A program made the translations under genes and the position numbers. A stretch of 64,000 nucleotides of DNA, taken from the NCBI GenBank assembly GCA_038874435.1, contig JAVZCK010000001.1, positions 154,255-218,254 of the forward strand. The letters run 5' to 3'. The DNA comes from Thermoplasmata archaeon. GTDB lineage: Archaea; Thermoplasmatota; Thermoplasmata; Lutacidiplasmatales; SKW197. Under the pieces are notes generated by a model. The model searched no databases. It saw only the letters and a program-made list of their open reading frames with translations, and was not told the origin of the DNA. Positions 9,990 to 43,451 of the stretch are shown here, one piece after another. Numbering within the stretch: the first letter of the stretch is position 1; every line of letters starts with the position of its first letter.

Positions 9990-10577
9990 CTACTCGATTA
10001 TCTCTGCATTCCTTGTAAGATATGCCAAATCTTGCTGCGAAAACATTTCTTTCATTACCGGTAGAATAAGAATTGAATTTGTGCGGAGAAGCTGGTCATA
10101 GAGGGTTTCTATCATCCGCATCACCGCAGGAAACTTGTTGTTAAGAATGAGAGTATCTAGGCAGTCTATAAGAACCACACAACCTGGCTTTTTTTCGATC
10201 ATTTCTGCAAGGTATCTTGATAGAATCCCAATGCTTGTAGGCGGGAGATTGTTTTTACCTGCTACACTTGTAAGCCAGATAAAAATTTCTGTTTGAACTC
10301 CATACTCTTCCATTATGCGCTCAGCACTGTTCCTTGATACGCAGATTGCAGTTTTGCCAGCATTCAGAAGGTCCTTGAGCAGCATGTAGCTTACTTTTGG
10401 CTTTGTCTCAAATACCACATACATCCTACCTTGCTTCAATTCTTTCCCATCTGTCTTCTTAGCAATTTTTTCTTTCAATTGTCTGAGAAAGTCCTCCTCG
10501 GACACATGTGTTCCACCCGTGATGTATTTTCTCTCTTCAGCCATCAGGTCACCCTTTGGTATGCTGCAAATCTGCAA
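9990..10577 (-). CDS. Stand-alone DUF835-like protein (RecA/KaiC-like fold without Walker A)
   Basis: 195 aa. Blocks 'ICVSRNS...IFIWLTS...GCVVLIDCLDTLILNNKF' align with residues ~285-420 of the giant protein ('LCVSTTF...VLWISES...GVLVLDCIETLILENGF'). Confidence 0.55.
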   Translation of the reverse strand: MQICSIPKGDLMAEERKYITGGTHVSEEDFLRQLKEKIAKKTDGKELKQGRMYVVFETKPKVSYMLLKDLLNAGKTAICVSRNSAERIMEEYGVQTEIFIWLTSVAGKNNLPPTSIGILSRYLAEMIEKKPGCVVLIDCLDTLILNNKFPAVMRMIETLYDQLLRTNSILILPVMKEMFSQQDLAYLTRNAEIIE

Positions 10578-16291: not shown

Positions 16292-19200
16292 ATGTATACT
16301 GGGGGCAAGAAAATGGACGCAAGAAAGATTGAGATAGAGGGCATAAATAAGCTAGTAGAAGAGGGAATACCTGCGGATTATATGCTGCTGTTGCAGACCG
16401 ATGAGGGGCTGGAAACAGACCTGCTTGTGAGACAGTATATAAAGGAAGCACTGACTAAAGGAGAGATTTGTATTGCGGTGTTATCCGAGAGTTCACCAGA
16501 TGACTTTAAAAAGTTGATGAGTGCAATAGGAATAAATGCTGAGACCCATGAAAAGAATGGCACGCTCTACATTGTGGACTGGTATTCCTTCAGAAATGAA
16601 AGAATAATAGGGGTAGAGGAGAAAGGTGCAATTTACAAATGCTCAAAGAGTTTAACAAATGTGGAAATTGCAATTTCAAAAATTCTGAAGAAAATTGAAG
16701 GCAAAAAATTCAGAGTTTATTCAGACATTCTTTCAAATGCTATAAAAGTTTTTGGCTTCGAAACCGCATTCAAGTTTTCGCAAGGGCTGACAGCGAGAAT
16801 CAAGAAATACAATGGCGGAGCTCTGTTCAAAATTTCCAAGACGATGCATGAGCAGAAGGTAATTTCCGCGTTTCACTCGCATTTCAACGGTGTACTGGAC
16901 ATTGAGCATCGAAGGGAAGAGGAGAGGGTGGTTGCAAGAATAGGAATAATTTCTTTAGATAATTTATTCTATGAAACCTCCTACAAGAAATTGGGTGTGA
17001 GCAAAACAAAGGGCATTATAATTATGGATGAGGAAGAGATGAAGGCAAAGCCAAAACCCGTTGTGAAGAAAGTTGTGAAAGAAGAGGTGGCAGAAGAGGA
17101 GACAGCAGAGGAGGAGGGTGGAGAGAAAATTGAAGAAATGAAAGGCTCAAGTGTTCTCATTTATGAGGAGGACCCCAAACACATCTACAAACTCTATCGC
17201 CAATTTCTTTCGGAAGGAATGCCAGGGCTCTGTGTTAGCACCACATTCCCAGCTAAACTCAAGAAACTCCATAAATTTGATTCAGAGGTGCTCTGGATTT
17301 CAGAATCCTCAGAGAAAGGTGCAGTGAAGCCAGGTAGAATGGAATTTGAGTTAATGCGTGAAGTGGGCAACTTCTTAAAAAACAACAAGGAAGGTGTGCT
17401 AGTTCTTGACTGTATTGAAACCCTCATCCTTGAAAATGGCTTTGATAAGGTTGTTAAGTTTCTGAAGAAGATTGGTGACATGGCCGCGGTGAACGGCAAC
17501 ACGGTTCTGGCTGTGATAAATGACAAGAGCATGGAGCAGGAGAAGCTGTATGTGCTTTCGAAAAGCTTTGATATGAAAATAACTCGTGAAGAACTGGAGA
17601 AGGAAGCAAAGAAGCCAAAGCCAGTTGAGGTAAAACCAGAAGTCGTGCCTGGGGCAAAGGAAGAGGTTGTGTCTGCAGAAGAGGAGAAACCAGTTGTTGC
17701 ACCTGCGGTGGAAAAAGAAGAGGTGAAGGTAGAAAAAGAGCCAGAGGCAGTGAAGGAAGAAAAGGCATTGGTTGGTAGAGAAGCATTTACAAATGGGTTG
17801 AAGAAGAGTGTGACTGCGAGAGAGGCCTACACCAATGGACTTGGAAAGCGGAAGCCAGGGTATGTAAACGGATTGAAGAAACCTGGCATGAGGCAAAGAC
17901 CAGCAAAAGTTAGCCGGGTAAAACAGGTTGTTGTGGGACTTGTGGTTGTGGTAATTGCCATCTCAGTTTTTGCATTCTGGCTTTTCACGATTCCTTCAGA
18001 AAAAATTAAGGTGGATGGAAACATAGATGATTGGCAGGGGCTTGCGGTTTATAAAGACAGTGAGGACTTTGCAAACCCAGACATAAAAATCACAGAATAC
18101 AGCATTTACTACAGCAATGAAAAATGCTATTTCTATGTGAAAGTTGCTGGCACTGCGTTTAATGGTGCAAACAGTGGCTATGATACCCTTGTTCTGTTTA
18201 TCGACAAGGACAGGAATCCAAACACTGGCTACAGGGTGGAGAACATAGGAGCAGATGCAAAGATAGAGATTAGCGGATTCAATGGCAACATTCATACTTC
18301 ATCAGTGGCAGTGTTTAAAGAAGGGAGTACATCTATAAAGCCAGAATTGAATTACAGTGCCTGGGAAAGTGTTGGCGGTGTGGTCGTGGAGAAAAGCGGG
18401 AACATTGTTGAAGGAAGTGCGAAGATTACAGGAATGACAGAGCCAATAGGCCTTGTTGCGATGCGACACTATGAGGGCAGTGTTTATGCAGAGAAACGGG
18501 GCATGGCGCTGGTAAGCAAAACTGAAGGAAGTTTAGTGGTTTACCAGAATTTTATTGGCAATGATGTGGTATATGCAGATGCTGATGTGCTCGAGCTAAG
18601 ATTGATTGCAAAGGGTAAGGATGTGCATGTGGAAAGCATAAGCGTGGCAAATGCGAATGTGAGTTTACCAAAGAAGGACATTGCAGTGAATGAAGAAGTG
18701 GTGGTGAGTTGCAAAGCAAAGAGCTTGACAAATGGTAAGGCATTTGAGTTTGGTGTACAGAGTGTGGACACGAATGTACCCTACAGAATTGTGGGCAACG
18801 GTGGCAAAGCATACTTTGGTTCCTTACCTTCAGGAATTGTGATTGATGGTGCGTTTGGTGATTGGCAGGGTGTGGAGAAGGGGAGTGATGTAAGTGGAGA
18901 TGCAAGCCAGAACATTGATTTGCGAGAGTATGCCAGTGCAATTGCAAGCAATGCATACTTCTACATGGCAGTGGATGGCACAATGCTTGCTGGCTGCGAA
19001 ATCCCTGTGCTTGGTGCCAGACCCCCAGTGCAGCCAGGACCACCAACGCCAGTGGTGATAAAAGAAAATCTGGGCACGGATGTGGCAAGGGTTTACATTG
19101 ATTTGATGAATTCTACAATCAACACCTTCAATCCAGCAATGATTTCTCATGGCTATCTGATTGAGTTACAAGGGAGAAATGGACAGGTAGTAAGTGCAAG

Positions 19201-27729: not shown

Positions 27730-30700
27730 GTGGTAATGATGAAATTGGAGAGTAAAACTACGAAGAGTTTAGGGCTTAGAAATGGCAGAGACAACACCCG
27801 TGGTTTTACAAATGGGCTGACAAATGGTTTCACCAACGGGAATGGTTATAGGGCAGGAAGAAAATTGAAGAAAAGCAGAAGCCATGGCAAAGTTTTGGCT
27901 GTTTTTGTGCTTGCAATGCTTGTGGTTAGCGTTGTAGCGGTTCTCACATGGCAGAGCAGCAGTGCTGGTGCGATAAGGATAGATGGCAGTTTTGAGGACT
28001 GGCAGGGCGTTGAAAAGACGACGAAGAAAAGGGATTTTGGTGTGCCAGAGAACATAGACCTTGCTGAGTATGCAACTGCAGAAACGGGCAAGAATGTGGC
28101 ATTCTACGCAAAGGTGTATGGCAATTTGCTTGCTGGTGATGGTAGATATACAATTGAGGCACCCTCAGAGAACCCAGTGTATGTGGCAAATCAGAGGGAA
28201 ATGGCAATCCCAAATGCAAATGGCAGAGATGTAGCTTATGTGTTTGTTGACGCAGATAACAATCCTGCAACAGGTTTCAAACCATCGCAAAACTTCGCAG
28301 TGGGTGCGGAGAAATCGATAGAGATTGTGGGCAAGAATGGGAAGATAGAGGCAAGTAGGGTGCTGACATTTGCTGGTGTGGTGCAGCAGGAGTGGAATTG
28401 GCACATTGGAGAGAGTGTGGCTACAGCAACAAATGGCAAAGAAATGGAGACGATGGCAGGTAAGAATTTACTTGGTGTTGGTGAAAATTACGCAGTTTAC
28501 TTCTACATGATTGACTGGCAGAACATGGAATGCAAGCTGGAGAATGCGTTGCGGTGTGAAAATGCGAGGTTCACAATGTTTGGGCTGTATCTGTCTCCTC
28601 AAGCAGAAGTGCGGACCAGAGATGTGGGAATGGAAATAAGAGGCACACCACACGCAGTGATTCACATAAACGGGAATGCGGATTTTGCTACACAAGCAAC
28701 AAGTGAGGGCTGGCCTGGTGATGGAAGCCAGAGCAACCCATACATAATTGAAGGCTACGAGATAGACGCAAATGGCGGAAGTCATTGCATCTGGATAGAG
28801 AACACTAATGTATATTTTGTGATAAGAAACTGCAAGCTTTACAATGCGACAGATTCATCAGGTCTTTTCCCATATTCATCAGGAATTTGCCTAAGGGATG
28901 TACAATTTGGCAAACTAGAGGCTAACCATGTATATGGGACCTTCAGAGGGGTCTTTCTTGATTCTTCACACAATAACATCATAATCAATAACAATGCTTC
29001 CGGTAACACATATTATGGCATATATTTAACTTCCTCGACAAAGAATACTCTAACACTTAACAATGGCTCTTCCAATGGATATGAAGGCATTAGACTATCT
29101 TCATCGAGCAATGACAACCACCTTACAAACAACAATGTCTCTGGCAACTTCCAATATGGCATTCGTTTGATATCATCAAATAACAATAACATCACAAATA
29201 ATACCGTATCTACCAATGCCCAATACGGGATCAGGTTAGCATCTTCAAGTGACAACAAAATAACATACAATTGGATTTGCAACAATACAAACTATGGAGT
29301 CAACATCACGTCTGGTTCCACAGGCAACACAATCCACCACAACAATTTCATCGGTAACAACGGTGCAGGCAAAGGCGTTTCTGGCAATTGCCAGGCATAC
29401 GATGATTCTGGCGGCAACTTTTGGTATGACAGCGCAGCCCATGAGGGCAATTACTGGAGTAACTGGGACAGACGTAACTGGGGCACACCAAATGCCTATC
29501 CCATTGATGGAGGCGCTGGTGCGAGCGACTGGTATCCTATCAGGACGCATCTTCCAATACACATCAACGGTGACGCAGATTTCGCAAACCAGGCAGCAAA
29601 TGAGCACTGGCAGGGTAATGGAAGCCAGAGCAATCCCTACATTATTGAAGAATATGAGATAGACGGTGCGGGTGGACCATACTGTATATGGATAGAGAAC
29701 ACAACAGTTTATTTTACAATCAGAAATTGCACCGTGTTTAACGCTACATCTACCAGCAGTGCACCTCAGGGCACAGGAATTGCATTGAATAATGTTAAAA
29801 ATGGAACAGTGGAAAATAATATATGCTATAACTCAAGGTATGGCATTAACCTCTATGGAAATTCCCAGAACAACATAGTAACAAGCAACAATGTTAGTGG
29901 TAACCTCAACTATGGTATCCGTCTGTATTCGGCAAGCAATAATGAGATATCTAGTAATTATGGGTTTGGGGGTAGCCTTTGTACGGTCTATTTGTATACT
30001 TCCAGCAACAACAACATCACAAACAATGTTGCCAGTAGCAATACAAACTATGGCATCTACCTGTATGGCTCCGGCAACAACAACATAACCTATAACCACA
30101 TTTACGGCAATGCAAACTACGGACTTTATATTACATCTGCCTCCACTGCCAACAAAATCCATTACAATACATTTATTGGCAACAAGGGGGCAAGCAAGGG
30201 GATAAGTGATGGCAAATATCAGGCATACGATGGTGTTGGTGGGAATTTGTGGTATGACGACACCAAACAGAAAGGCAATTACTGGAGTAACTGGGACGGG
30301 AATGGCTGGGGCACCTCAGGTGCTTATTCCATTGACGGCATTGGTGGTGCAAGCGACTGGTATCCGCTTTCATTACTTCCGCTTTTACCTCTCCACATAA
30401 ACGGCAATTCCGAGTTTGTCGCGTTCGCCCAATTCTATGGATGGGCGGGTGATGGTAGTCAATCTAATCCATACATCATCGAGAATTACGAGATAGATGC
30501 GAATAACAGCAGATACTGCATTTGGATAGAAAACACGACAGTTTCCTTCTTGATCATAAATTGCGCTGTTTCCAATGCGACCGTTTCTGGCAGTGCACCA
30601 TATGGTGCAGGCATCGCCCTCAAAAATGTAACAAATGGAAGGATAGAAAACAACACATGTACTAATTCAAATTATGGAATTTACTTCTACAGTGGCTCAA

Positions 30701-31806
30701 ACAATAATGTCATAATTGGGAACAGGGCATTTGGCAGTACTAACGGCATTTACTTATATTTCTCAAGCAACAACACTATTGTAAACACAAATGCCTCTGG
30801 CAATTCATATTACGGCATCTATTTGTCTGCCTCTTCTAACAACACCATAACTAATAATTATGTTTCCGGCAACGATGACGCTGGCATTTACTTGGATTCT
30901 ACCTCAAGTTACAACAAAATAACTAGCAACATTCTCACAGGCAATACCATGGGCATAGGAGTATATTCGGGAAACTATAATACAATTTCAAACAACGATG
31001 TCTATGGCAACAATGGCTTCGGCATCTATTTGAGTGGTTCCACGGGAGATAATAACATTACAAATAACAGAGTTATCAATAACAGTTATTACGGGATAAT
31101 CCTAGAAGATGCACACAACAACAATATTCAGAACAATACAGTTGCTGGTAACCACATATATGGAATCTTCATGTATGGGTCAACCTTCAACAATATCTGT
31201 GATAACAATCTAAGTGGAAATTCAGGTCATGGCATCCATTTGTATTCTGGATCCAACTCTAATACAATTACAAACAACACAATCTCGGGTAATTCTTACA
31301 ATGGTGTTTGGCTGCTAGGAGCTGATGGAAACTACATATTCCTCAACAATATTTCAAACAACGGAGTATCTGGTATTTACTTGGGATACGCAAACAATAA
31401 CATTGTGACTTATAACTGGATTTGCAACAATGCAAATTATGGTGTGTACATTACTGATACTTCCACAGGCAACACAATCCATCACAACAACTTTATTGGA
31501 AATAGGCCACCAAGCAGGGAGATAAAACCAGGCACCAACTGTCAGGCATACGACGATGTAGGAGGCAACTTCTGGTGTGACAATACCGCGCAGGAGGGCA
31601 ACTACTGGAGTAACTGGGACGGCACGGGTACTGGAAGCGAACTTGCCTATCCAATAGATGGCGGTGCAGGCGCAAGCGACTGGTACCCACTTGGTGGACC
31701 TGTTAGTGAAAGTATCAGCATTCTCTTTGCGTTGCTAGTCAATGCAATGCTTGGCTTCGGAGTAATTTACCTACGAAAGAGAAAATTGGAAAACAAAAGT
31801 ATTTAA
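27730..31806 (+). CDS. Large (1358 aa) beta-helix surface protein, paralogous to the giant protein. Cytoplasmic 'TNGL' repeats, signal-anchor TM, 'IDGSFEDWQGV' domain, three beta-helix supermodules, C-terminal TM plus basic tail
   Basis: 'GFTNGLTNGFTNGNG' then TM 'VLAVFVLAMLVVSVVAVLTW'. Three N-cap ('SNPYIIE.YEIDA') and C-cap ('GNYWSNWDG') sets. C-terminus '...GPVSESISILFALLVNAMLGFGVIYLRKRK'. Confidence 0.8.
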   Translation: MVMMKLESKTTKSLGLRNGRDNTRGFTNGLTNGFTNGNGYRAGRKLKKSRSHGKVLAVFVLAMLVVSVVAVLTWQSSSAGAIRIDGSFEDWQGVEKTTKKRDFGVPENIDLAEYATAETGKNVAFYAKVYGNLLAGDGRYTIEAPSENPVYVANQREMAIPNANGRDVAYVFVDADNNPATGFKPSQNFAVGAEKSIEIVGKNGKIEASRVLTFAGVVQQEWNWHIGESVATATNGKEMETMAGKNLLGVGENYAVYFYMIDWQNMECKLENALRCENARFTMFGLYLSPQAEVRTRDVGMEIRGTPHAVIHINGNADFATQATSEGWPGDGSQSNPYIIEGYEIDANGGSHCIWIENTNVYFVIRNCKLYNATDSSGLFPYSSGICLRDVQFGKLEANHVYGTFRGVFLDSSHNNIIINNNASGNTYYGIYLTSSTKNTLTLNNGSSNGYEGIRLSSSSNDNHLTNNNVSGNFQYGIRLISSNNNNITNNTVSTNAQYGIRLASSSDNKITYNWICNNTNYGVNITSGSTGNTIHHNNFIGNNGAGKGVSGNCQAYDDSGGNFWYDSAAHEGNYWSNWDRRNWGTPNAYPIDGGAGASDWYPIRTHLPIHINGDADFANQAANEHWQGNGSQSNPYIIEEYEIDGAGGPYCIWIENTTVYFTIRNCTVFNATSTSSAPQGTGIALNNVKNGTVENNICYNSRYGINLYGNSQNNIVTSNNVSGNLNYGIRLYSASNNEISSNYGFGGSLCTVYLYTSSNNNITNNVASSNTNYGIYLYGSGNNNITYNHIYGNANYGLYITSASTANKIHYNTFIGNKGASKGISDGKYQAYDGVGGNLWYDDTKQKGNYWSNWDGNGWGTSGAYSIDGIGGASDWYPLSLLPLLPLHINGNSEFVAFAQFYGWAGDGSQSNPYIIENYEIDANNSRYCIWIENTTVSFLIINCAVSNATVSGSAPYGAGIALKNVTNGRIENNTCTNSNYGIYFYSGSNNNVIIGNRAFGSTNGIYLYFSSNNTIVNTNASGNSYYGIYLSASSNNTITNNYVSGNDDAGIYLDSTSSYNKITSNILTGNTMGIGVYSGNYNTISNNDVYGNNGFGIYLSGSTGDNNITNNRVINNSYYGIILEDAHNNNIQNNTVAGNHIYGIFMYGSTFNNICDNNLSGNSGHGIHLYSGSNSNTITNNTISGNSYNGVWLLGADGNYIFLNNISNNGVSGIYLGYANNNIVTYNWICNNANYGVYITDTSTGNTIHHNNFIGNRPPSREIKPGTNCQAYDDVGGNFWCDNTAQEGNYWSNWDGTGTGSELAYPIDGGAGASDWYPLGGPVSESISILFALLVNAMLGFGVIYLRKRKLENKSI

Positions 31807-31827: not shown

Positions 31828-32265
31828 ATGATGGAGACACGCACACAGTTCATTGTACTGATAGTCCTACTGGTGGTTATCACTTGCGGGTTTGGGGGTT
31901 ACTTCCTTTACAAGGACTGGAGTACACCGAAAGAGGTGACCAAGCACTACAATGTGAGCAATGCAACACTCAATCCAAACTCTGATATAGTGCTTGAGTT
32001 TTATTCGAAAGCAGGTGGAAACATCACTGGAACCATAAATGCAAGTAAGGAAGTGGAGGCATTCATATTAGACACTTTTAACTATCTGGAATACAGAAAA
32101 AACAGGAATCTTTCAGCCATCGCTCTAGTGTTTCTCACAAATGGCACGAGGATAAACATAACATGGGATGTTCCCTCAGAAAATTTCTGGTATCTTCTCA
32201 TTTACAACAACAAAACTGAAAATGTGGTAGTTGAATATGATGTCTGGTGTAGATTTCTCAGTTAA
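31828..32265 (+). CDS. Small membrane-anchored hypothetical protein with a sequon-rich ectodomain
   Basis: 145 aa with N-terminal TM 'FIVLIVLLVVITCGFGGYFLY'. Lies 21 nt downstream of the 1358-aa gene and is probably co-transcribed. Confidence 0.4.
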   Translation: MMETRTQFIVLIVLLVVITCGFGGYFLYKDWSTPKEVTKHYNVSNATLNPNSDIVLEFYSKAGGNITGTINASKEVEAFILDTFNYLEYRKNRNLSAIALVFLTNGTRINITWDVPSENFWYLLIYNNKTENVVVEYDVWCRFLS

Positions 32266-33109
32266 GAAGGAAGAGATAAATTCCAATTCGGAGCGGATTC
32301 CAACCGCAGTTGCTGACTTTGATGCAATAATTGGAGGAGGAGTACCTAGGGGCAGCTTGGTCATTCTCAAGAGCGAAATGGGTGCTGGGCATATTGAGTT
32401 TGTTATAACCTCCATGGCAAAACTCATTCTTGCTAAAGAAGACAGGGAGTATTCTGATTTTTTTCTGAAAAAATCTAAAGGTTTCCTCCCTGAAAAATTT
32501 TTGTTTATAACAATTTCAAGGGCAAAGGAGGACATACTGAGAGAAGTCAAGGGCTCGTTTCCTCAGGATTATTATGAGGCAATTTCTAAATCTGTGATTT
32601 TCAAGGATTTTTCTGCTGAGTATTTCAGAGCCACGGTAGTGCCTCCCGCCTGGGCAGGCGAGGAAACAAGTATATTCAGGAAGGACAAGAGTTCAGGGAA
32701 CATCCTAGGCGAATTAATAGAATTTCTGGATGCTAATGCCTCGCAATCCCTGGTGGTTTTAGATGCGTTAACGGACCTAGTGATTACCAAGAAAATTGAG
32801 TTTTACGACCTTGTGACGCTGCTGAAAGGCCTCCAGAGAGTTGCAAAAAAGTGGCAGGGTGTGATTTACCTTTTGCTCACTGCCAACATTCTTGAGCCAC
32901 AGAAAGAGCTGCTTTTGATGGACAGTGTGGATGGTATAATTACATTTGAATGGAGCAAGAGCACCAAAACATCAAGGAGGCAGCGTTTCATGTATGTGGA
33001 AAAATTCATGCCATTGTTGCTTCATCTGGATAACGAGAGAATCACTAAATTTGCAATTGAGATTAATTCCCAGGAAGGACTGGTGGTATCAAGCTATGTG
33101 AGGGTGTGA
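32231..33109 (+). CDS. KaiC/RecA-like protein with Walker A replaced (pseudo-ATPase)
   Basis: 'DFDAIIGGGVPRGSLVILKSEMGAGHIEFV': the P-loop GxxGxGKT is absent. Start may be a few codons downstream. Confidence 0.55.
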   Translation: MNMMSGVDFSVKKEEINSNSERIPTAVADFDAIIGGGVPRGSLVILKSEMGAGHIEFVITSMAKLILAKEDREYSDFFLKKSKGFLPEKFLFITISRAKEDILREVKGSFPQDYYEAISKSVIFKDFSAEYFRATVVPPAWAGEETSIFRKDKSSGNILGELIEFLDANASQSLVVLDALTDLVITKKIEFYDLVTLLKGLQRVAKKWQGVIYLLLTANILEPQKELLLMDSVDGIITFEWSKSTKTSRRQRFMYVEKFMPLLLHLDNERITKFAIEINSQEGLVVSSYVRV

Positions 33110-33810
33110 ACATGGAAAGAGTTGAAACAGGTATAGCTGGACTTGATGAAATGTTGAATGGTGGAATTCCCAAAGGGCACATTGTGAGTGTACTAGGTGC
33201 GTTCGGAACAGGCAAAACCTGTTTTGCAACCCAGTTTATCAACCATGGTCTCCAGAAGGGTGAAAAAGCACTTTTCATCACGCTTGAGGAAGAAGAAGAA
33301 TCTATAATTGAAAATGCTCTCTCATTCGGTTTTGACCTTCGCCCTTACACACAAAATGGAAATCTCGCTATTTATAAGCTCTCTCCCTCAGATGCTAAAA
33401 ATTCAATTGAAAAGATAAAGACCGAACTACCGAAGGCTATAGAAAGTTCAAATGTCCAGAGATTGGTGATAGACTCAATCTCATTGCTTACTATGATGTT
33501 TGAAAACGAAGGTGAAAAACGAGAAACCTTGTTTGCTCTGTGCCAGAAGATAAAAACTGCAGGTGCCACAGCAATCTTCACAGCGGAAGCAAAGCCAGAA
33601 AATTCAAATGTTTCAAGAGATGGAATTGTGGAATATGTTTCAGATGGAGTGATTGTGCTTTATTATCTGGAAGACCCACAGCATGCCGGAGAGATAAAGA
33701 CCTTCCTAAAAGTGCTGAAAATGCGAAGAACTGCGCACTCAAGAAAGATTAAACCATACGAGCTGGGTAAGAATGGCATTACTGTGCTTGCAAAGGCAGA
33801 AGTGATATAA
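33106..33810 (+). CDS. KaiC-like RecA-superfamily ATPase (intact Walker A)
   Basis: 'GLDEMLNGGIPKGHIVSVLGAFGTGKTCFATQF' and 'ALFITLEE'. 234 aa. Start overlaps the upstream stop. Confidence 0.7.
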   Translation: MNMERVETGIAGLDEMLNGGIPKGHIVSVLGAFGTGKTCFATQFINHGLQKGEKALFITLEEEEESIIENALSFGFDLRPYTQNGNLAIYKLSPSDAKNSIEKIKTELPKAIESSNVQRLVIDSISLLTMMFENEGEKRETLFALCQKIKTAGATAIFTAEAKPENSNVSRDGIVEYVSDGVIVLYYLEDPQHAGEIKTFLKVLKMRRTAHSRKIKPYELGKNGITVLAKAEVI

Positions 33811-33820
33811 GAATTAGGTA

Positions 33821-34543
33821 TTACTTTATCACAATCTCAAATTTATTATCCCTGCCTATGATGAGTGGGAAATACTTTCTCTCGTGTTTGGTTTCTCTCA
33901 TCTTTATTACGCTCACATAGAGGTTTACATTCATGTCGCTCCTTCTCAAGTCCAGATGAATTATGCCATCAGCGAGAAAATCCTCAATTCCATAAAGTCC
34001 AAATTTCATTCTATCTGGTTCCATTTCTGAAATCAGGAATGCGGTCATGTTCAGGTCTCTCATCAATTCAAAGAAGTGGAAGAGGTCATCTCTTGGATTC
34101 TTCATGTTTGCAATGGCATAGAGTGCATTCAAGGAATCTAGAGCCACGACATTAAACCCCATCAAATCATGGAAATTCTTTATCTGGGCTTCAAGTGACT
34201 TTATCCAATCCATTTCGCCAAGCCCTGCATCTGCAATTTCTTTTCTGAGATACCCAAGATCGATAATTGTAAGGTTTTCCTCGACTTCCTTTATATTTCT
34301 GCCAATCTTCTGCATTCTTCGTTCAATCAGTGGTCTTTTCTCTTCAAGTGTTATATAAAGGCATTTGCCCTTGTTCTCTCTTGCCATGTGCCAGAGGATA
34401 TTAAATACAAAGGAAGATTTCATGCTCCCTGCACAGCCACAGATGAGCACTACATGTCCTTTCGGAATTCCCCCTTCTAGGCGTTCATCCAATCCCTGAA
34501 CATAAGTTCTGATTCTTTCCATTCCATCCATAGTTATCACCAT
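33821..34543 (-). CDS. KaiC-like RecA-superfamily protein (variant P-loop GCAGSMKSS)
   Basis: 'GLDERLEGGIPKGHVVLICGCAGSMKSSFV' and 'LYITLEE'. 240 aa. Confidence 0.65.
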   Translation of the reverse strand: MVITMDGMERIRTYVQGLDERLEGGIPKGHVVLICGCAGSMKSSFVFNILWHMARENKGKCLYITLEEKRPLIERRMQKIGRNIKEVEENLTIIDLGYLRKEIADAGLGEMDWIKSLEAQIKNFHDLMGFNVVALDSLNALYAIANMKNPRDDLFHFFELMRDLNMTAFLISEMEPDRMKFGLYGIEDFLADGIIHLDLRRSDMNVNLYVSVIKMRETKHERKYFPLIIGRDNKFEIVIK

Positions 34544-34807
34544 TTATCTTGTTTTTTTCCCTGCTTCAATTATCTGCAACATACCTTTGTACATCTGTTC
34601 CGCAAGTAATTGTCCAGCCATTTGCTCACAGAGCACCTTGAGAGCACCAGCAATTTTCAGATAGTCATCAATGGACATCTGATTAGAGGGTACCGTTATT
34701 CCGAGTTTCTTTTTCTGGAGTTCGATTGTAGGCCCCACCATTGTGCCGAACATCTTTACAAGGTAGGCCTCCAGTTCATGTTGTATTGCACCGTTGCTCA
34801 TGTGCAC
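34544..34807 (-). CDS. Small hypothetical protein, first gene of the minus-strand KaiC-like pair
   Basis: 87 aa. Abuts the KaiC-like gene with no gap. No recognisable motif. Confidence 0.35.
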   Translation of the reverse strand: MHMSNGAIQHELEAYLVKMFGTMVGPTIELQKKKLGITVPSNQMSIDDYLKIAGALKVLCEQMAGQLLAEQMYKGMLQIIEAGKKTR

Positions 34808-36830: not shown

Positions 36831-39288
36831 AAGTTTTTTCCCTTCTAGTGCGTAGAACGAACATAAAAAGAGTGAGCAAACTAAAAGCTGGGTATGGACA
36901 TTCTGAGATAGGTGTAAGCGAGATTTCTACATGCGTCTCTGCAAAATCGGAGATAGAGACGCTCTGGTTGTACCACTCATGGTTCTGGGCTGTTGCATTT
37001 ATTGAGTGTATCCCTGGCTTAAGTGAAATGTTAAACTTCCCATCGGAAACAGGAATTTCATTTCCATCAACATAAACCGTTGCACTTTCAGGAGAGATTG
37101 TGCCATTTAGCCAGCCACCATGCACCACGATTGAGAAATTGAAAACGAATGTCTGGTTGTCATTGTCGCTGGTGGTGAGGCTGCAGGTGTATATGCCAGG
37201 CTGTGTGAAATTAAGTCTCACATTTCCATAAAAGGTCTCGCTTGAGATGTTCCAGGTGTAATTCACTATGCATCCGTCATCAATGTCCTCAGCTAGCGAA
37301 GTATTCAGTACAAACTCCTCGCTCACATTTATTTCTATAGGTGAGGAAAAATGATAGAGATGGGGAAATTGTGATTTTATTCCTCCGATAAGCCAGCAGT
37401 TATTTCTGAATGCAGCGAAACCACCGCATAGTGCATGGTGCGCCTTCACATAACCTACATTATTTTCTATTCTGTCGGTAATTTCCACTGGTGCATTAAC
37501 GCCGTCCCAGACATACACCTGGGTTTCCACATAATTCTCAAGGCCAGTAACATTTCTCGTATGATTCCAGCCGACAATTAGAAAATATTGTCCGTTCCAC
37601 ACCACATCTGAAATATCCGTAGAATTTGCAAATAAACTCCCAAGCCGCTCAAAATTCTCGCCATCAAATTTAATTACCTGGCTTTCTGGTGGTGATGGAA
37701 TTCCATAGTTATCCCACGAGCTCTCTGCAGTTCCAAAAACCCAAAACTCTCCGTTCCAGGCAATTCTGTAGGTTCCAATGTCCCATACTGGTAAGTTTAG
37801 TTGGAGCGTCAAATCAGTCCAGTTCTCTCCACCATCCCAGACCACAATGTTCGCTGGCTTGTAAGAAGTTGCATTGTTGCTTGCATTTCCCACCATGATT
37901 AGCCAGTGTGTTCCATTCCATCCAATGCTCAAATGCTGCTCTCTCGTCCAGCCATTAGGCATACTCCATCCTAATTCCTCAAGCTTGGGTGTGAGATTTG
38001 TGAAACTTATGCCATCAAAAATGGCAAGGGAGTGTTCGGTATCTCCGATTAGCCAGTGTGTTCCATTCCACACCGCAGAGCAAATCGCACCCCATTTGAA
38101 CCGCCCAAAGGGTGAATTTGTCAGATTTATATTCGTAAAGTTCACTCCGTCGTAGGAAACAAGATATGGATACCCCTGTCCATCTCTGCAGGTGCCTCCA
38201 ATAAGCCAGTGTGTTCCATTCCACCCAACACCATAGACTTCGCCTGGAGTATATGGTGCTGTGGTATTCCTTACATCCTGGGTTATGTTAGTAACATTCG
38301 TCCCATTATACAGGTGAGGGTATGTGATAAGCACCCCGTTCTGGTCGGTCAGAGAGTAGAGCCATGTGGAATTGTTTGCGTAAACTGGATAGAGGAAGGT
38401 CTTATTTTCGTTTTCTCCAAGATGGAGGCCCAGCGTATCGCTCACATCTATAAAATAAGCGTTTTCCAGAAAGTAGGTTAAGTTACCTGGCTCCTCATTA
38501 ATTTGCATTCCCAAGTTTTTTAATCTGAGATTTACATTTTTCAGCGGGGCATCGTACTTTCCATCCCATCCAATCATGCAGAAAAGGACAGAATAATTCT
38601 CAACGGCTCTGAGCTTGGATTTTAAAACACCCACTTCCATTGCACTGGCACCAATCCCACAGTCAACCATGGTTGCAATTTTCCATAACCACTGGCTGTT
38701 ATCATTTCCCTGATATTCAAGAAGGTAACTTGAGGAAACTCTGTGATTTTTTCCTGTAATCTGAACCGCATAATCAGAACCGAAATTCTCAGAGAGAAAA
38801 TACCCTGTGCTGGCATTTGCATCCGTATCAATGAAGATGTAAGCTACATCCTCTCCCCTGCCCCTGGGTATTTTTGTTATCACTTCATCTGGAATTGTAG
38901 TTTCACAGCCTGAAAATGCGATTTCTTTTCCATCTCCAGCCATTATACAGTCGTAAGTTTTGAGGTAGAAAAAGAGAAAGTTCCCTTCTTCAGAGTAAGC
39001 GTACTCTTGCAGGTCTACATTTGGAGAAATAAAGGGATTGTACTCATCAGTTATTCTCGGAATGCCTTCCCAATCCTCAAATTTACCGTCAATTTTTATT
39101 ATCTTTGTGTCTGCAAGATTTTGAGGTTGCACCTGCCAGACTGCAAGGAAGAAAAAAAATACGAATAGCGTTGCCCACAACACGGTCAGAGGCTTGTCCT
39201 TCTGTACATGCTTTTTCCCACCAAACAACTCTCTTCCATTCGTTAATCCGTTGTAGCTTCTTAAGCTTTTTCTCATACTCCTACCCAC
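36781..39288 (-). CDS. Surface protein (835 aa). Cytoplasmic 'NGLTNG' motif, signal-anchor TM, 'IDGKFEDWEGI' domain, ~6 'WNGTHWLIGG'-type beta-propeller blades, Ig/PKD-like domain, C-terminal TM plus basic tail
   Basis: The N-terminal ~120 aa are collinear with the N-termini and extracellular starts of the two beta-helix giants. 3' end overlaps the recJ-like gene convergently by ~50 nt. Confidence 0.7.
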   Translation of the reverse strand: MGRSMRKSLRSYNGLTNGRELFGGKKHVQKDKPLTVLWATLFVFFFFLAVWQVQPQNLADTKIIKIDGKFEDWEGIPRITDEYNPFISPNVDLQEYAYSEEGNFLFFYLKTYDCIMAGDGKEIAFSGCETTIPDEVITKIPRGRGEDVAYIFIDTDANASTGYFLSENFGSDYAVQITGKNHRVSSSYLLEYQGNDNSQWLWKIATMVDCGIGASAMEVGVLKSKLRAVENYSVLFCMIGWDGKYDAPLKNVNLRLKNLGMQINEEPGNLTYFLENAYFIDVSDTLGLHLGENENKTFLYPVYANNSTWLYSLTDQNGVLITYPHLYNGTNVTNITQDVRNTTAPYTPGEVYGVGWNGTHWLIGGTCRDGQGYPYLVSYDGVNFTNINLTNSPFGRFKWGAICSAVWNGTHWLIGDTEHSLAIFDGISFTNLTPKLEELGWSMPNGWTREQHLSIGWNGTHWLIMVGNASNNATSYKPANIVVWDGGENWTDLTLQLNLPVWDIGTYRIAWNGEFWVFGTAESSWDNYGIPSPPESQVIKFDGENFERLGSLFANSTDISDVVWNGQYFLIVGWNHTRNVTGLENYVETQVYVWDGVNAPVEITDRIENNVGYVKAHHALCGGFAAFRNNCWLIGGIKSQFPHLYHFSSPIEINVSEEFVLNTSLAEDIDDGCIVNYTWNISSETFYGNVRLNFTQPGIYTCSLTTSDNDNQTFVFNFSIVVHGGWLNGTISPESATVYVDGNEIPVSDGKFNISLKPGIHSINATAQNHEWYNQSVSISDFAETHVEISLTPISECPYPAFSLLTLFMFVLRTRREKTFRRHYPTVPSRFHRPV

Positions 39289-40073
39289 ACATTTTCCAGA
39301 ATTTTTCGCACAGCGTTAACTGCAGAAAGCGCAGCAAGATAGCTCGTCTTTGGATTGTGCGGAAATGGCTTGTTTCTCGTCTCGAGCAACATCTCTCCAA
39401 AATCTCCTTTCACAATGATGCGATGGGTATTCATATTGATAGATGGGTCAACCACAATCCTTACCTTTGTTTTATCGAAGCCCATACCAGCTAATGAAAG
39501 CGTCGCAGCAACATTCACATTCTTCGGAAATTTTTTCACAGCTTCTCTTGCCATGCCCTCGTAAATCACAACCTCTCTTGTTATCTCCTCTTTCTTCAGT
39601 CCGTGCTCTGCTAAGATTGCCTCTTCAAAAGCAGAAGGAGGTTTTCTGGTTTCCAGCGTGATTTCATAGATGCCCGCACCCTTAACAGCAGAAACTGCAT
39701 CAATACCTGCAATAGCACCAGATGGGATGTAAACCCTCGCACTTTTCTCAGCTGCAAGCGCAAAAATTTTCTCACGCAATGCATCGTCAGCAAGTGCGCC
39801 AACACTTAAGATAAGTACATCTACACCATGCTCCAATACGACTGGTACATAGACCGCTACTGCTTGTTGAGAAGCACATTCTATGGCAAGATCCACATCG
39901 GAAAGCACTTTTGGGAAATCGCACCTAACCGCCTTTGGAAACTTTGCAGACAAGGCCTCAATGTATTCTGGTTTATTATCTACAAGGAAGATTTTTTCAA
40001 TTTTTTTTTCCTGTTGGAGAGCACGAGTGATTGCAGTTCCAATTGCACCGCATCCGATTATCAGCACCTTCAT
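39273..40073 (-). CDS. nadX: L-aspartate dehydrogenase
   Basis: 'MKVLIIGCGAIG', 'YIPSGAIAGIDA', 'ITLETRKPP' and 'NPKTS' are collinear with NadX (TM1643 family). 266 aa. Confidence 0.8.
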   Translation of the reverse strand: MKVLIIGCGAIGTAITRALQQEKKIEKIFLVDNKPEYIEALSAKFPKAVRCDFPKVLSDVDLAIECASQQAVAVYVPVVLEHGVDVLILSVGALADDALREKIFALAAEKSARVYIPSGAIAGIDAVSAVKGAGIYEITLETRKPPSAFEEAILAEHGLKKEEITREVVIYEGMAREAVKKFPKNVNVAATLSLAGMGFDKTKVRIVVDPSINMNTHRIIVKGDFGEMLLETRNKPFPHNPKTSYLAALSAVNAVRKILENVWVGV

Positions 40074-41245
40074 TTCTTCATCGCCTTCTTCAACTCCTCA
40101 ATCAGCAACGGAACAACCTTCTGGTAATCCCCAACAATTCCATAGTCCGCTACATTGAAGATTGGAGCTTCAGGGTCCTTGTTGATTGCAATAATTACTT
40201 TTGAGTCCTTCATTCCAACCAAGTGCTGGATTGTGCCGCTGATTCCGCAGGCAATGTAGAGTTTTGGTGCCACTGTAATACCACTCTGCCCCACCTGTGC
40301 TGACTTTGGCATCCATCCCAGGTCAACAGCTACTCTTGAAGCACCTACCGCACCGCCAAGCAACTCAGCCAGTTCTTCAAGTAACTTGAAACCCTCTTTC
40401 GAGCCAATTCCTCTGCCTCCAGAGACGATGATATCTGCCTCATCTATCTTCTTCATTCCCGGCGTTGCAGTTTTCACAATTTCTTTAATCACAGTCCTGA
40501 TTGTATGTTCCTTAATATCAACTGGAACTACAACCACCTCTGCCTTCCGCGGGTTCTCGGCCTTTTTGAACACATTCGGTCTCACAGTTGCCATCTGTGG
40601 CCTAGTGTTCGGGCAAAGAATGTCTGCCATCACATTGCCACCGAAGGCCGGGCGTGTCTGCAAAAGCAAGCCATCTTTTATGCTCAATCCTGTGCAGTCA
40701 GCGGTTAAGCCAAGCCCAAGTGCTGCTGCAACTCTCGGAGCCAAATCTCTACCGACTTTTGTTGCAGGGAAAAGCATGATGTTGGGTTTGTACTTTGAAA
40801 TCAGTCCAACAATTACAGGAGAATATGCATCTGTGGTATAGGGTTCTAGCATCTTGTGCTCTGCTACATAAACTACATCTGCACCATGTTTCTCAAGTAA
40901 TTCTACATTTGATTTTATATTGGCACCAAGCAGAACTGCACATACTCGCTGGTTCAAAGCATCAGCAAGTTCTCTCGCCTTTGTTGTAAGTTCCAGAGCA
41001 ACACTCTTTAATTTCTCGCCTTCACACTCAGCAAACACCCAGACATCACGGAAACTAGATAGGTCAGCACTTACGGCTTTCCTTTCAATTGTAATGGCCT
41101 TTACAGGACACACTTGCACACAAGCGCCGCAGAGCACACAAGCATCACCAATAACTGCCTTTTTTTCTACAATTGTTATTGCGCCAAACGGGCAGGTTTT
41201 AGCACAGATACCACAACCAATGCATTTTTCGCTGACTGTAATCAT
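40070..41245 (-). CDS. etfA: Electron transfer flavoprotein alpha subunit with an N-terminal 2x[4Fe-4S] ferredoxin domain (FixB-like)
   Basis: 'CIGCGICAKTCP' and 'CVLCGACVQVCP', followed by an EtfA FAD-binding domain. Confidence 0.8.
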   Translation of the reverse strand: MITVSEKCIGCGICAKTCPFGAITIVEKKAVIGDACVLCGACVQVCPVKAITIERKAVSADLSSFRDVWVFAECEGEKLKSVALELTTKARELADALNQRVCAVLLGANIKSNVELLEKHGADVVYVAEHKMLEPYTTDAYSPVIVGLISKYKPNIMLFPATKVGRDLAPRVAAALGLGLTADCTGLSIKDGLLLQTRPAFGGNVMADILCPNTRPQMATVRPNVFKKAENPRKAEVVVVPVDIKEHTIRTVIKEIVKTATPGMKKIDEADIIVSGGRGIGSKEGFKLLEELAELLGGAVGASRVAVDLGWMPKSAQVGQSGITVAPKLYIACGISGTIQHLVGMKDSKVIIAINKDPEAPIFNVADYGIVGDYQKVVPLLIEELKKAMKK

Positions 41246-42046
41246 TTATATCACCTTCTTCTCCATCAGAGCTTCAACTATTTTCTTTACACTCTCTTCC
41301 ACATTTTCGGTGTAGACCACGCCTTTACCACGAACTGGTGGTGAATACACTCTTGAAACCTGTGTTGGTGAGCCAGATAAACCGAACCTGTTTTTGTCTC
41401 CACCCAGTGTCTCAGCAGTCCAGGTTTCAAATGGCTTCTTGTTTGCCTTGAGAATTGCAGCCATCGAAGGGTTTGAAGGTTCAAAGGAGGAAGGTGTGGA
41501 GCATGTAATAAGCACAGGCAACTTCACTTCCACCACTTTATAGCCATCATCGGTCAAGCTTTTCACAGTGAGTTTGTTGTTTTCAAAACCTAGAATTGAA
41601 TCCACATAAGTTACCTGTGGAATACCCAGATGCTGTGCAACTTCTGGACCTACCTGAGCAGTGTCTCCATCAATTGCCTGCTGCCCGCAGAAGACAATGT
41701 CAAATTTTCCAAGTTTTTTCACAGCTTCTGCGAGTGTGAGAGAGGTTGCCCAAGTGTCTGCACCTGCAAACGCCCTATCGCTGAGCAGAATACCTTTATC
41801 GGCACCCAGAGCCAAGCATTTCATAATTGCGGATTTTGCCTGCGGTGGCCCCATTGAAATTACAGTCACATTTACAGGTGTTTTATCTCTGATTTTTTCC
41901 CGCAGGCGAAGGGCTTCTTCAAGTGCAAACTGGTCGAATGGATTCAGTATGCTCGGAACTCCGTCTCTTATTAAGGTGCCAGTTTTAGGGTCCACTTTAA
42001 CTTCCGTTGTATCAGGCACCTGTTTCACAAGAACTACGAATTCCAT
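41246..42046 (-). CDS. etfB: Electron transfer flavoprotein beta subunit (FixA-like)
   Basis: 'MEFVVLVKQVPDTTEVKVDPKTGTL' is the typical EtfB N-terminus. Confidence 0.8.
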   Translation of the reverse strand: MEFVVLVKQVPDTTEVKVDPKTGTLIRDGVPSILNPFDQFALEEALRLREKIRDKTPVNVTVISMGPPQAKSAIMKCLALGADKGILLSDRAFAGADTWATSLTLAEAVKKLGKFDIVFCGQQAIDGDTAQVGPEVAQHLGIPQVTYVDSILGFENNKLTVKSLTDDGYKVVEVKLPVLITCSTPSSFEPSNPSMAAILKANKKPFETWTAETLGGDKNRFGLSGSPTQVSRVYSPPVRGKGVVYTENVEESVKKIVEALMEKKVI

Positions 42047-42064
42047 AAAATCACCTGGCTTTTT

Positions 42065-43273: not shown

Positions 43274-43407
43274 GGGATAAGGTAAATGTGTATAAATAAT
43301 TAAGGGTGTTTTTTTATGTTACTATCAATGAGGGAACATTTTCTTGCGAGAAATGGCAATTGAAACTGCCAGAAGTCGCTTCCCAGAAGGGAAAATTAAA
43401 CAAAACA

Positions 43408-43418
43408 TATATATAGCA
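43408..43418 (+). promoter_or_regulatory. TATA-like element (acatatatata) upstream of the subtilase gene
   Basis: ~35 nt upstream of ATG 43452. GGAGG at 43441-43445. Confidence 0.4.
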
Positions 43419-43451
43419 CAGATGTATCTTCCTCCTAACAGGAGGCTTAAA

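What the first reader, a model, noticed from the sequence alone, without database searches (positions are those of the whole stretch)
31828..34807. KaiC-like gene cluster with a P-loop-less member immediately downstream of the giant surface-protein genes
Three RecA/KaiC-like genes lie in tandem: one with the Walker A destroyed (SEMGAGHIEF), one canonical (GAFGTGKT) and one variant (GCAGSMKSS). They are joined by a small membrane protein and an 87-aa protein of unknown function. The giant protein's own N-terminus is a fourth KaiC-like pseudo-ATPase domain. No kaiA or kaiB is present. This looks like a signalling or assembly ATPase set functionally tied to the surface proteins rather than a clock.
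Basis: partly seen in the sequence, partly recalled or inferred. Interest (0 to 1): 0.55.

Follow-up and report, generated by a model that had tools for sequence, protein, structure and literature searches.

The report
Two unrelated KaiC-like gene modules
The cluster is real, but it is two separate archaeal KaiC-like ATPase modules that sit side by side only in very close relatives; the pair with the P-loop-less member is a housekeeping-type pair found across the phylum and is not tied to the giant surface proteins, so this is a fairly ordinary example of a known kind.

Summary
All five genes and the quoted motifs are present in this Thermoplasmata MAG window. They are not one tandem array.

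**Module 1: A-B-C on the + strand.**
- A is a 145-aa membrane protein, B a 289-292-aa KaiC-fold pseudo-ATPase and C a 234-aa canonical KaiC (TIGR03880 family).
- B directly precedes C in every one of 80 Thermoplasmatota species loci with enough DNA.
- No B ortholog has the Walker A lysine (0 of 55). Every C ortholog has GxxGxGKT and the EE pair (58 of 58).
- The usual neighbours are housekeeping genes: LonB, NMN adenylyltransferase and CinA.
- Beta-helix genes lie upstream only in the window and in one 92%-identical relative. They are absent in the 90%, 80% and 77% relatives.

**Module 2: E-D on the - strand, convergent with module 1.**
- E is a three-helix protein with no known fold match.
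- D belongs to a large KaiC subfamily with a conserved GxxG[ST]MK[ST] P-loop.
- D genes lie within 1.5 kb of a DUF835 (inactivated KaiC) gene in 15 of 87 loci, against 1 of 80 control loci.
- The giant surface protein has a cytoplasmic inactivated-KaiC plus DUF835 head, so a link between E-D and the giant is possible but weak.

No KaiA, KaiB or ArlH is present. Verdict: new members of the known archaeal KaiC-like signalling kind.

The parts
31828..32265 (+). Gene A: 145-aa single-pass membrane protein with an N-x-S/T-rich extracytoplasmic domain. It overlaps the start of B by about 26 nt. It is found only in the closest clade.
   Evidence: ORF and sequence. No Pfam, NCBIfam or PADLOC hit. A homolog directly upstream of B in L001-L003 and L172-L176.
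32231..33109 (+). Gene B: KaiC-fold pseudo-ATPase (iKaiC). The likely start is the ATG at 32240 (289 aa). Walker A Lys-Thr and the catalytic Glu pair are lost; the Walker B-like Asp is kept.
   Evidence: SSO2452, E 8.8e-10; fold; 0 of 55 orthologs have G.GK[ST].
33106..33810 (+). Gene C: canonical single-domain KaiC-like ATPase (GAFGTGKT, TLEEEE, Walker B). It is the invariant downstream partner of B.
   Evidence: PF06745 214.7 bits. TIGR03880 KaiC_arch_3 254.1 bits against a cut-off of 249.45. PDB KaiC E 3e-66. B->C adjacency in 80 loci. 58 of 58 orthologs have Walker A and EE.
33821..34543 (-). Gene D: KaiC-like ATPase with the family-wide P-loop variant GxxG[ST]MK[ST] (here GCAGSMKS). The catalytic Glu and Walker B Asp are kept.
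   Evidence: PF06745 154.7 bits. Alignment A2. Motif conserved across about 80 metagenome loci.
34544..34807 (-). Gene E: small (85-87 aa) three-helix protein, first gene of the E->D operon. The likely start is the ATG at 34801. A TATA-like TTTTATATC lies about 25 nt upstream.
   Evidence: One search gives a family of about 80-aa proteins at 33-45% identity. Searches show E->D pairing elsewhere; pLDDT 91.5; no PDB fold match; upstream sequence.
16328..17035 (+). Cytoplasmic KaiC-like pseudo-ATPase domain (aa 13-248) at the N-terminus of the 3768-aa giant protein. It is a separate 265-aa gene in relatives.
   Evidence: PF06745 35.1 bits, with weak DUF7090/DUF7504 hits. No GxxGxGKT in the sequence. 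P0128 is 80% identical and stand-alone in L081-83.
17171..17569 (+). DUF835 (inactivated KaiC) domain, aa 294-426 of the giant protein.
   Evidence: PF05763 86.5 bits. Own HMM E 5e-54. DUF835 is called iKaiC in PMC5847659.
17786..17992 (+). Three [FY][TV]NGL motifs followed by the single TM helix that separates the cytoplasmic head from the extracellular NosD/beta-helix repeats.
27730..31806 (+). 1358-aa TNGL/beta-helix surface protein directly upstream of gene A (21-nt gap). Adjacency is not conserved beyond the 92% relative.
9990..10577 (-). Stand-alone DUF835 protein, an alternative candidate partner for E-D.
   Evidence: PF05763 98.6 bits..

Best explanation
The region holds two independent KaiC-like modules that came to lie next to each other recently.

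Module 1 is the A-B-C operon.
- Its core, B-C, is an ancient, phylum-wide pair in Thermoplasmatota: a KaiC-fold pseudo-ATPase (B, no Walker A Lys, no catalytic Glu) translationally coupled to a canonical KaiC-like ATPase (C).
- Inferred mechanism: B and C assemble into one mixed KaiC-type ring, or two stacked rings like the CI/CII halves of cyanobacterial KaiC. C supplies ATP hydrolysis or autophosphorylation, and B acts as a non-catalytic regulatory or scaffold subunit.
- This would be a general cellular regulator, not a surface-protein factor. A is a lineage-specific membrane-anchored add-on.

Module 2 is the E->D operon.
- D is a KaiC-like ATPase of a large subfamily with a Met in the P-loop (GxxGxMKS). 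E is a small three-helix adaptor.
- This subfamily is repeatedly encoded next to DUF835 (inactivated-KaiC) proteins, many of them membrane proteins.
- Inferred mechanism: D docks onto DUF835 domains, with E as adaptor, and relays a signal.
- In this window the DUF835 carriers are the giant beta-helix protein (cytoplasmic iKaiC + DUF835 head) and a stand-alone DUF835 gene. Any link to the surface proteins would therefore run through E-D, not through the P-loop-less gene.

Shown: gene structure, family membership, motif conservation and synteny statistics. Inferred: every protein-protein interaction and the direction of signalling.
For: B-C pair:
- B is immediately followed by C in all 80 species-level loci with enough DNA.
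- 0 of 55 B orthologs have G.GK[ST], while the glycine frame G[DE]xG[AG]G and 53 other columns are invariant. B is therefore under selection and is not a pseudogene.
- 58 of 58 C orthologs have GxxGxGKT plus EE.
- The B stop and C start overlap or lie 2 nt apart.
- The B model has a KaiC/RecA fold.
- The conserved context is Hel308(-), LonB, NMNAT, CinA, B, C.
- Relatives at 77-90% identity have no beta-helix gene next to A-B-C.

E-D module:
- E->D pairing recurs at 31-45% E identity in L087, L088, L089, L093, L099, L105, L142 and L156.
- The Met-P-loop is conserved in about 80 loci.
- A DUF835 gene lies within 1.5 kb of D in 15 of 87 loci, against 1 of 80 B-C loci. Fisher p = 3e-4 before removing duplicate loci.
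- E-D-DUF835 forms overlapping operons in L142, L156 and L094.

Giant protein: it carries KaiC-like and DUF835 domains ahead of its TM helix.

Independence of the modules: E-D at 81-94% identity sits in a different context (FtsZ, pyrD) in L084-86, and A-B-C relatives lack D-E (L003/L175).
Against: - No interaction data exist, and no complex prediction could be run.
- The DUF835-coding part of the giant gene is about 16 kb, five genes, away from D. In other genomes the D-DUF835 pairs are directly adjacent.
- E is present in only about 12 of 87 D-family loci.
- The control set (B-C loci) is taxonomically narrower than the D-family metagenome set, and some D loci are duplicates of one another. 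The enrichment p-value is therefore optimistic.
- A-B-C lies only 21 nt downstream of a beta-helix gene here and in L001, so co-transcription in this organism cannot be excluded.
Confidence: 0.6

Rival explanations
1. One reading: all five genes plus the giant protein's KaiC-like head form one signalling or assembly ATPase set dedicated to the giant TNGL/beta-helix surface proteins.
For: - Physical proximity: giant gene, 1358-aa beta-helix gene, then A-B-C on one strand, with gaps of 131 and 21 nt. The same layout occurs in L001.
- The giant protein has iKaiC and DUF835 domains.
- E->D is followed by a beta-helix gene in L084-86.
Against: - B-C is conserved phylum-wide without beta-helix neighbours.
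- Relatives at 90%, 80% and 77% identity have an ABC transporter, pyrBI or other genes upstream of A-B-C.
- D-E is absent next to A-B-C in L003/L175.
- Beta-helix genes neighbour D in only two independent contexts among 87 loci.
- Beta-helix genes are abundant in this lineage, so chance adjacency is likely.
Confidence: 0.1
2. B-C is a pair of RadA paralogs (aRadC/Rad55-like) that acts as a recombination or DNA-repair mediator. It would be analogous to Rad55-Rad57 or the RAD51-paralog complexes, in which some subunits have degenerate ATP sites.
For: - The best PDB match of the B profile and of the B model is SSO2452. SSO2452 is described as a RadA paralog with antirecombinase activity (McRobbie 2009, cited in PMC10003305).
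- RAD51-paralog complexes are among the top fold hits.
- A Hel308-type helicase gene is a conserved, though not adjacent, neighbour.
Against: - C is far closer to KaiC (E 3e-66) than to RadA/RecA (about 1e-6 to 1e-9) and passes the KaiC_arch_3 cut-off.
- The immediate conserved neighbours are LonB, NMNAT and CinA, not repair genes.
- Hel308 is divergently oriented and several genes away.
- A bona fide RadA is elsewhere in the window (57269-58213).
Confidence: 0.15
3. Pure coincidence: neither module has anything to do with the surface proteins. E-D works with other DUF835 proteins, such as the stand-alone one at 9990-10577 or ones elsewhere in the genome, or with none.
For: - D lies 6.2 kb from the end of the giant gene and about 16 kb from the part that encodes DUF835. 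Real D-DUF835 pairs are under 300 nt apart.
- The beta-helix protein next to E-D in L084 has no DUF835 or TNGL head.
- Contexts are rearranged between close relatives.
Against: E-D lies near beta-helix genes in two different genomic contexts (window/L001 and L084-86), and a D paralog does so in L164.
Confidence: 0.35

Closest known systems
Archaeal KaiC-like ATPases and inactivated KaiC (iKaiC) domains proposed as signal-transduction hubs (Makarova, Galperin & Koonin 2017, mBio; cited in PMC5847659 and PMC10983859)
   Same: - Single-domain KaiC homologs present as several paralogs.
- Mixed with P-loop-less homologs, including DUF835.
- Linked to membrane proteins.
- No KaiA or KaiB.
   Different: Three specific arrangements could not be checked against that paper, which the library does not hold. 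None is covered by a curated Pfam or NCBIfam model that says more than 'KaiC':
- the phylum-wide B->C pair;
- the E adaptor family;
- the Met-P-loop subfamily.
Cyanobacterial KaiC (tandem CI + CII domains, KaiABC oscillator)
   Same: Same fold and motifs in C: PDB KaiC E 1e-53 to 3e-66. A B+C pair could mimic a two-domain KaiC.
   Different: The proteins are single-domain and encoded by two genes. One partner is catalytically dead. There is no KaiA or KaiB. C scores 116.5 bits against the circ_KaiC cut-off of 546.
ArlH/FlaH, the KaiC-like component of the archaellum motor
   Same: A single-domain KaiC-like protein that works by binding another ATPase and autophosphorylating (bioRxiv 10.1101/2021.03.19.436134, abstract).
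   Different: ArlH model scores are 61.6 (C), 36.8 (D) and 21.7 (B) bits against a cut-off of 215. No archaellum genes were seen next to the cluster.
SSO2452/aRadC RadA paralogs and eukaryotic RAD51-paralog heteromers
   Same: Best structural neighbour of B. The principle of pairing an active with a degenerate RecA-like subunit is the same.
   Different: No DNA-repair context. C is KaiC-type rather than RadA-type. SSO2452 keeps GTGKT, whereas B has lost the Lys-Thr (alignment).
DUF835 (PF05763) membrane proteins, e.g. 7TM-DUF835 and REC-DUF835 response regulators (PMC5847659)
   Same: The giant protein carries DUF835 on the cytoplasmic side of a TM helix. D-family genes neighbour 7TM-DUF835 genes (L089, L094, L145).
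   Different: Here DUF835 is preceded by a second iKaiC domain and followed by about 3200 aa of extracellular NosD/beta-helix repeats. In relatives the first iKaiC domain is a separate gene.

Membership tests
KaiC family, Pfam PF06745 (RecA-like fold, KaiC-type N-terminal motif) | Score at or above the Pfam gathering cut-off of 26.6 bits | tested here: met
   C 214.7 bits, D 154.7 bits, giant N-terminus 35.1 bits. B itself scores 20.4 bits (below the cut-off), but its orthologs score 32.8-39 bits, and the B model matches KaiC, SSO2452 and PH0186 at E about 1e-12.
KaiC_arch_3 (NCBIfam TIGR03880, AF_0351 family) | Whole-protein score at or above the curated cut-off of 249.45 bits | tested here: met
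   C scores 254.1 bits. D (98.3) and B do not reach it.
Circadian KaiC (KaiABC oscillator) | Two tandem KaiC domains of about 500 aa, and the circ_KaiC/PRK09302 cut-offs | tested here: not met
   The proteins are 234-292 aa with a single domain. C scores 168.9 bits against a cut-off of 408 and 116.5 against 546.
Circadian KaiC (KaiABC oscillator) | kaiB (and kaiA) present with kaiC | tested here: not met
   phmmer of KaiA and KaiB against all six-frame ORFs of the window gave no hit at E <= 10. Only this 64-kb window was searched.
ArlH/FlaH (archaellum) | NCBIfam ArlH equivalog cut-off of 215 bits | tested here: not met
   C 61.6, D 36.8 and B 21.7 bits.
ArlH/FlaH (archaellum) | Encoded in an arl operon next to arlI and arlJ | tested here: not met
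   The genes flanking the cluster are beta-helix proteins, ribosomal protein S15 and a DHH/RecJ-like protein. The rest of the window was not fully scanned.
Inactivated KaiC (iKaiC, in the sense of Makarova 2017 and Galperin 2018) | KaiC/RecA fold with loss of the Walker A Lys-Ser/Thr and the catalytic Glu | tested here: met
   B: 0 of 55 orthologs have G.GK[ST], and 'TFSR' replaces 'T(L/F)EE'. Giant N-terminus: 'LQTDEGLET' at the P-loop position. DUF835 in the giant: 86.5 bits.
Inactivated KaiC (iKaiC) | No ATP binding or hydrolysis | not testable with these tools
   B keeps the glycine frame GxxGxG and the Walker B-like Asp, so residual nucleotide binding cannot be excluded from sequence alone.
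RadA paralog aRadC (SSO2452-like) | Sequence or structure closest to SSO2452 | tested here: inconclusive
   SSO2452 is the top hit for B, but only marginally ahead of KaiC. For C and D, KaiC is far ahead.
RadA paralog aRadC (SSO2452-like) | ssDNA binding, or modulation of RadA recombination | not testable with these tools
   Needs biochemistry.

The most novel reading that the evidence does not exclude
The giant beta-helix protein is a receptor-like transmembrane signalling protein. Its cytoplasmic iKaiC + DUF835 head would recruit the soluble Met-P-loop KaiC (D) through the three-helix adaptor E. This would give archaea a KaiC-based outside-in (or inside-out) signalling route from a cell-surface adhesin, functionally analogous to receptor kinases. 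The E-D-DUF835 triad would be the portable core of that route.
Probability: 0.15. Interest if true: 0.65.

Novelty: new member of a known kind. Interest (0 to 1): 0.35.

Why it matters
The result matters in four ways.
- It removes a tempting but wrong inference, that the P-loop-less KaiC serves the giant surface proteins.
- It shows that this gene is half of a strictly conserved pseudo-ATPase/ATPase pair across Thermoplasmatota. That pair is a clean, testable case of how archaea use dead KaiC subunits.
- It defines a recurrent E-D-DUF835 gene triad and a KaiC subfamily with an unusual Gly-to-Met P-loop.
- The giant protein's architecture (two dead KaiC-type domains inside the cell, about 3200 aa of beta-helix outside) offers a concrete candidate for how the proposed archaeal KaiC signalling network connects to the cell surface.

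None of this overturns current ideas. It adds specific members and testable pairs to the KaiC-hub hypothesis.

Tried and rejected
- The key paper (Makarova 2017, PMC5717392 / 10.1128/mBio.01959-17) is not in the library. Comparison with it rests on how other papers cite it and on my own memory.
- The homolog search with the giant's N-terminal 470 aa returned only 4 proteins, because the K/E-rich linkers swamped the word filter. The spread of the iKaiC-DUF835-beta-helix architecture could not be mapped.
- The E-family alignment was too variable for a metagenome pattern scan. The D-family alignment was used instead.
- The afdb50 fold library was unavailable. The PDB fold search for E gave nothing significant (best E 0.44), so E is not a DEATH-like or other recognisable domain.
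- PADLOC gave no defence-system match apart from a trivial P-loop hit for C, so an anti-phage role was rejected.
- The sigma-70 promoter and terminator scan gave no more hits than shuffled sequence and is not suited to archaea. Promoters were judged only by eye (TATA-like boxes).
- Gene A was compared with the unrelated small TM protein that occupies the same position in Methanomassiliicoccus. There was no similarity, so 'a conserved membrane partner of B-C' is not supported.
- ArlH and circadian-clock membership were rejected on curated cut-offs.
Full report
**What is in the sequence**

The window comes from a Thermoplasmata archaeon MAG. The B protein is 100% identical to an NCBI entry of that name. 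The ORFs at the reported coordinates are as follows.

| Gene | Coordinates | Strand | Size and features |
|---|---|---|---|
| A | 31828-32265 | + | 145 aa; one TM helix; many N-x-S/T sequons |
| B | 32231-33109 | + | Orthologs start at the ATG at 32240, giving 289 aa; 'SEMGAGHIEF' |
| C | 33106-33810 | + | 234 aa; 'GAFGTGKT', 'TLEEEE' |
| D | 33821-34543 | - | 240 aa; 'GCAGSMKS', 'TLEE' |
| E | 34544-34807 | - | 87 aa |

- A overlaps B by about 26 nt.
- B and C overlap or are 2 nt apart.
- E ends where D begins.
- The stop codons of C and D are 10 nt apart and convergent.

So there are two operons, A-B-C and E->D, not one tandem array. Downstream lie ribosomal protein S15 and a DHH/RecJ-like gene.

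**Classifying the five genes**

| Gene | Pfam KaiC PF06745 (cut-off 26.6 bits) | Best NCBIfam result | Other |
|---|---|---|---|
| C | 214.7 bits | Passes TIGR03880 KaiC_arch_3: 254.1 vs 249.45 | - |
| D | 154.7 bits | No curated model passed | - |
| B | 20.4 bits, N-terminus only | None | Orthologs pass the Pfam cut-off |
| A | No hit | No hit | No PADLOC hit |
| E | No hit | No hit | No PADLOC hit |

- All three KaiC-like proteins are far below the ArlH cut-off (61.6, 36.8 and 21.7 bits against 215). They are also far below the circadian KaiC cut-offs.
- A profile of the B family matches SSO2452 over its full length (E 8.8e-10).
- An AlphaFold model of B (pLDDT 78, pTM 0.80) matches SSO2452, KaiC and PH0186 at E about 1e-12 to 1e-13 with TM about 0.78 on the target.
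- No KaiA or KaiB homolog is in the window.

**The giant protein**

ORF 16292-27598 (3768 aa) has this layout:
- a KaiC domain at aa 13-248 (35.1 bits) with no P-loop;
- a DUF835 domain at aa 294-426 (86.5 bits);
- three [FY][TV]NGL motifs;
- one TM helix;
- about 16 NosD/beta-helix repeats.

DUF835 is regarded as an inactivated KaiC domain (PMC5847659). In relatives the first domain is a separate 265-aa gene that overlaps a DUF835 gene (L081-83). A stand-alone DUF835 gene lies at 9990-10577(-).

**Module 1: B-C is an ancient pair**

- B has over 130 homologs of about 280 aa in Thermoplasmatota at 42-54% identity.
- In the alignment, none has the Walker A Lys-Thr. The consensus is G[DE]xG[AG]Gxx-E-F, and the catalytic EE is replaced by (T/S)F(S/T)R. 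Another 53 columns are invariant.
- Counted over the species set, 0 of 55 B orthologs have G.GK[ST].
- A scan of one genome per GTDB species returned 80 loci. In every locus with enough DNA, C follows B directly.
- All 58 such C orthologs keep GxxGxGKT and EE.
- The conserved surroundings are Hel308(-), LonB protease, NMN adenylyltransferase, CinA/PncC, B, C.

**Synteny test for the surface-protein link**

Beta-helix genes upstream of A-B-C occur only in the window and in L001, the 92% relative.

| Locus | B identity | What flanks A-B-C |
|---|---|---|
| L001 | 92% | Beta-helix gene upstream |
| L002 | 90% | ABC-transporter genes upstream |
| L175/L176 | 80% | pyrB and pyrI upstream |
| L172-174 | 77% | Flippase and PDDEXK nuclease genes downstream; little upstream DNA on these contigs |

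None of the more distant loci has a beta-helix neighbour. A is conserved only in this small clade. A different, unrelated small TM protein sits at the same position in eight Methanomassiliicoccus loci.

**Module 2: E-D**

- E has only close relatives in the word-indexed search. A full HMMER scan found a family of about 80-aa proteins at 33-45% identity.
- The E model is a confident three-helix bundle (pLDDT 91.5) with no significant PDB match.
- Wherever DNA is available, these E relatives are followed by a KaiC gene (L087, L088, L089).
- A metagenome scan with a D alignment gave 80 loci at 40-93% identity. Nearly all have the P-loop GxxG[ST][ML]K[ST], so the Gly-to-Met change is a family trait.
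- E is present in about 12 of these loci.
- With a DUF835 HMM built here, 15 of 87 D loci have a DUF835 gene within 1.5 kb, mostly under 300 nt away. The control is 1 of 80 B-C loci. Fisher p = 3e-4, and some loci are duplicates.
- L142, L156 and L094 carry overlapping E-D-DUF835 operons. L089 has DUF835, 7TM-DUF835, E, D.

**Are the two modules linked to each other or to the giant protein?**

- E-D at 81% (E) and 94% (D) identity lies in a different context (FtsZ, pyrD genes). There it is followed by a 1217-aa beta-helix/fn3 surface protein with the same repeat module but no DUF835 or TNGL head (L084-86).
- A-B-C relatives lack D-E nearby. The two modules are therefore independent.
- Beta-helix genes neighbour D only in that context and in L164, out of 87 loci.
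- The only reasoned bridge to the surface proteins is the D-DUF835 association together with the DUF835 head of the giant protein. That is an inference, weakened by the 16-kb distance.

**Mechanism (inferred)**

- B-C most likely forms a mixed or stacked KaiC-type ring with one catalytic and one dead subunit, serving a general regulatory role.
- E-D most likely docks onto DUF835 domains of membrane proteins.
- This fits the proposal that archaeal KaiC-like ATPases and their inactivated homologs are signalling hubs (Makarova et al. 2017, as cited in PMC5847659 and PMC10983859). It also fits the behaviour of ArlH and CirA.
- A DNA-repair role for B-C, by analogy with SSO2452 (PMC10003305), remains a minority alternative.

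**Verdict**

The clock is correctly excluded. The proposed tie to the surface proteins fails for the P-loop-less gene and its partners, and it survives only as a weak possibility for E-D. These are new members of a known kind, with three modestly new details:
- a phylum-wide iKaiC/KaiC pair;
- an E-D-DUF835 triad;
- a Met-P-loop subfamily.

Noticed in passing
window 9990-10577 (-): A stand-alone 195-aa DUF835 (inactivated KaiC) protein, PF05763 98.6 bits. It is a second possible partner for the E-D module.
   Followed up: partly
window 16292-17600 (+); L081 10001-12251, L082, L083: The KaiC-like head and the DUF835 part of the giant protein are one ORF here. In 80%-identical relatives they are two genes overlapping by 8 nt (265 aa and at least 487 aa). 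The junction lies in a K/E-rich low-complexity linker, so this is either a real fusion or a frameshift difference.
   Followed up: partly
window 17786-17870, 27805-27830 (+), about 39230-39250 (-): [FY/L][TV]NG[LR] motifs sit on the cytoplasmic side just before the TM helix of three surface proteins (giant, 1358 aa, 835 aa). All three share a post-TM segment I[KR][IV]DGxF[ED]DW[QE]G. The L084 beta-helix protein lacks the motif.
   Followed up: no
window 33821-34543 (-); L087-L171: The Walker A of the whole D subfamily reads GxxG[ST][ML]K[ST]. The glycine before the lysine is replaced by Met (sometimes Leu) in about 80 loci at 40-93% identity, while the catalytic Glu and Walker B Asp are kept. 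The consequence for ATP binding is unexplained.
   Followed up: partly
P0132, P0143: A 1605-aa protein contains 17 repeats that match residues 46-85 of E, and a 169-aa protein has two E-like copies. The E helical hairpin is therefore also used as a repeat unit.
   Followed up: no
window 39273-43273 (-) versus L175 10321-13882 (+): The block of acyl-CoA dehydrogenase, ETF-beta, Fer4-ETF-alpha and aspartate dehydrogenase lies downstream of A-B-C in both genomes but is inverted. E-D, S15, RecJ-like and the 835-aa gene lie in between only in the window. The rearrangement is recent.
   Followed up: no
L172 6374-11426: In a 77% relative, three DUF835 genes and an AAA_16/TPR (STAND-type) gene lie 5-9 kb downstream of A-B-C.
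   Followed up: no
L014, L018, L020, L022, L025, L032 and others (cluster 29): In eight Methanomassiliicoccus loci a different small single-TM protein of about 175 aa lies directly upstream of B. It has no sequence similarity to gene A.
   Followed up: partly
L088 3339-5270, L093: In two loci the E->D pair is followed on the same strand by an XPD-type helicase gene (DEAD_2/Helicase_C_2).
   Followed up: no
window 57269-58213 (-); 43344-49061 (+): A bona fide RadA (Rad51 family, 308 bits) and a 1905-aa secreted subtilase with Big_13 and glucodextranase-B repeats are also in the window.
   Followed up: no
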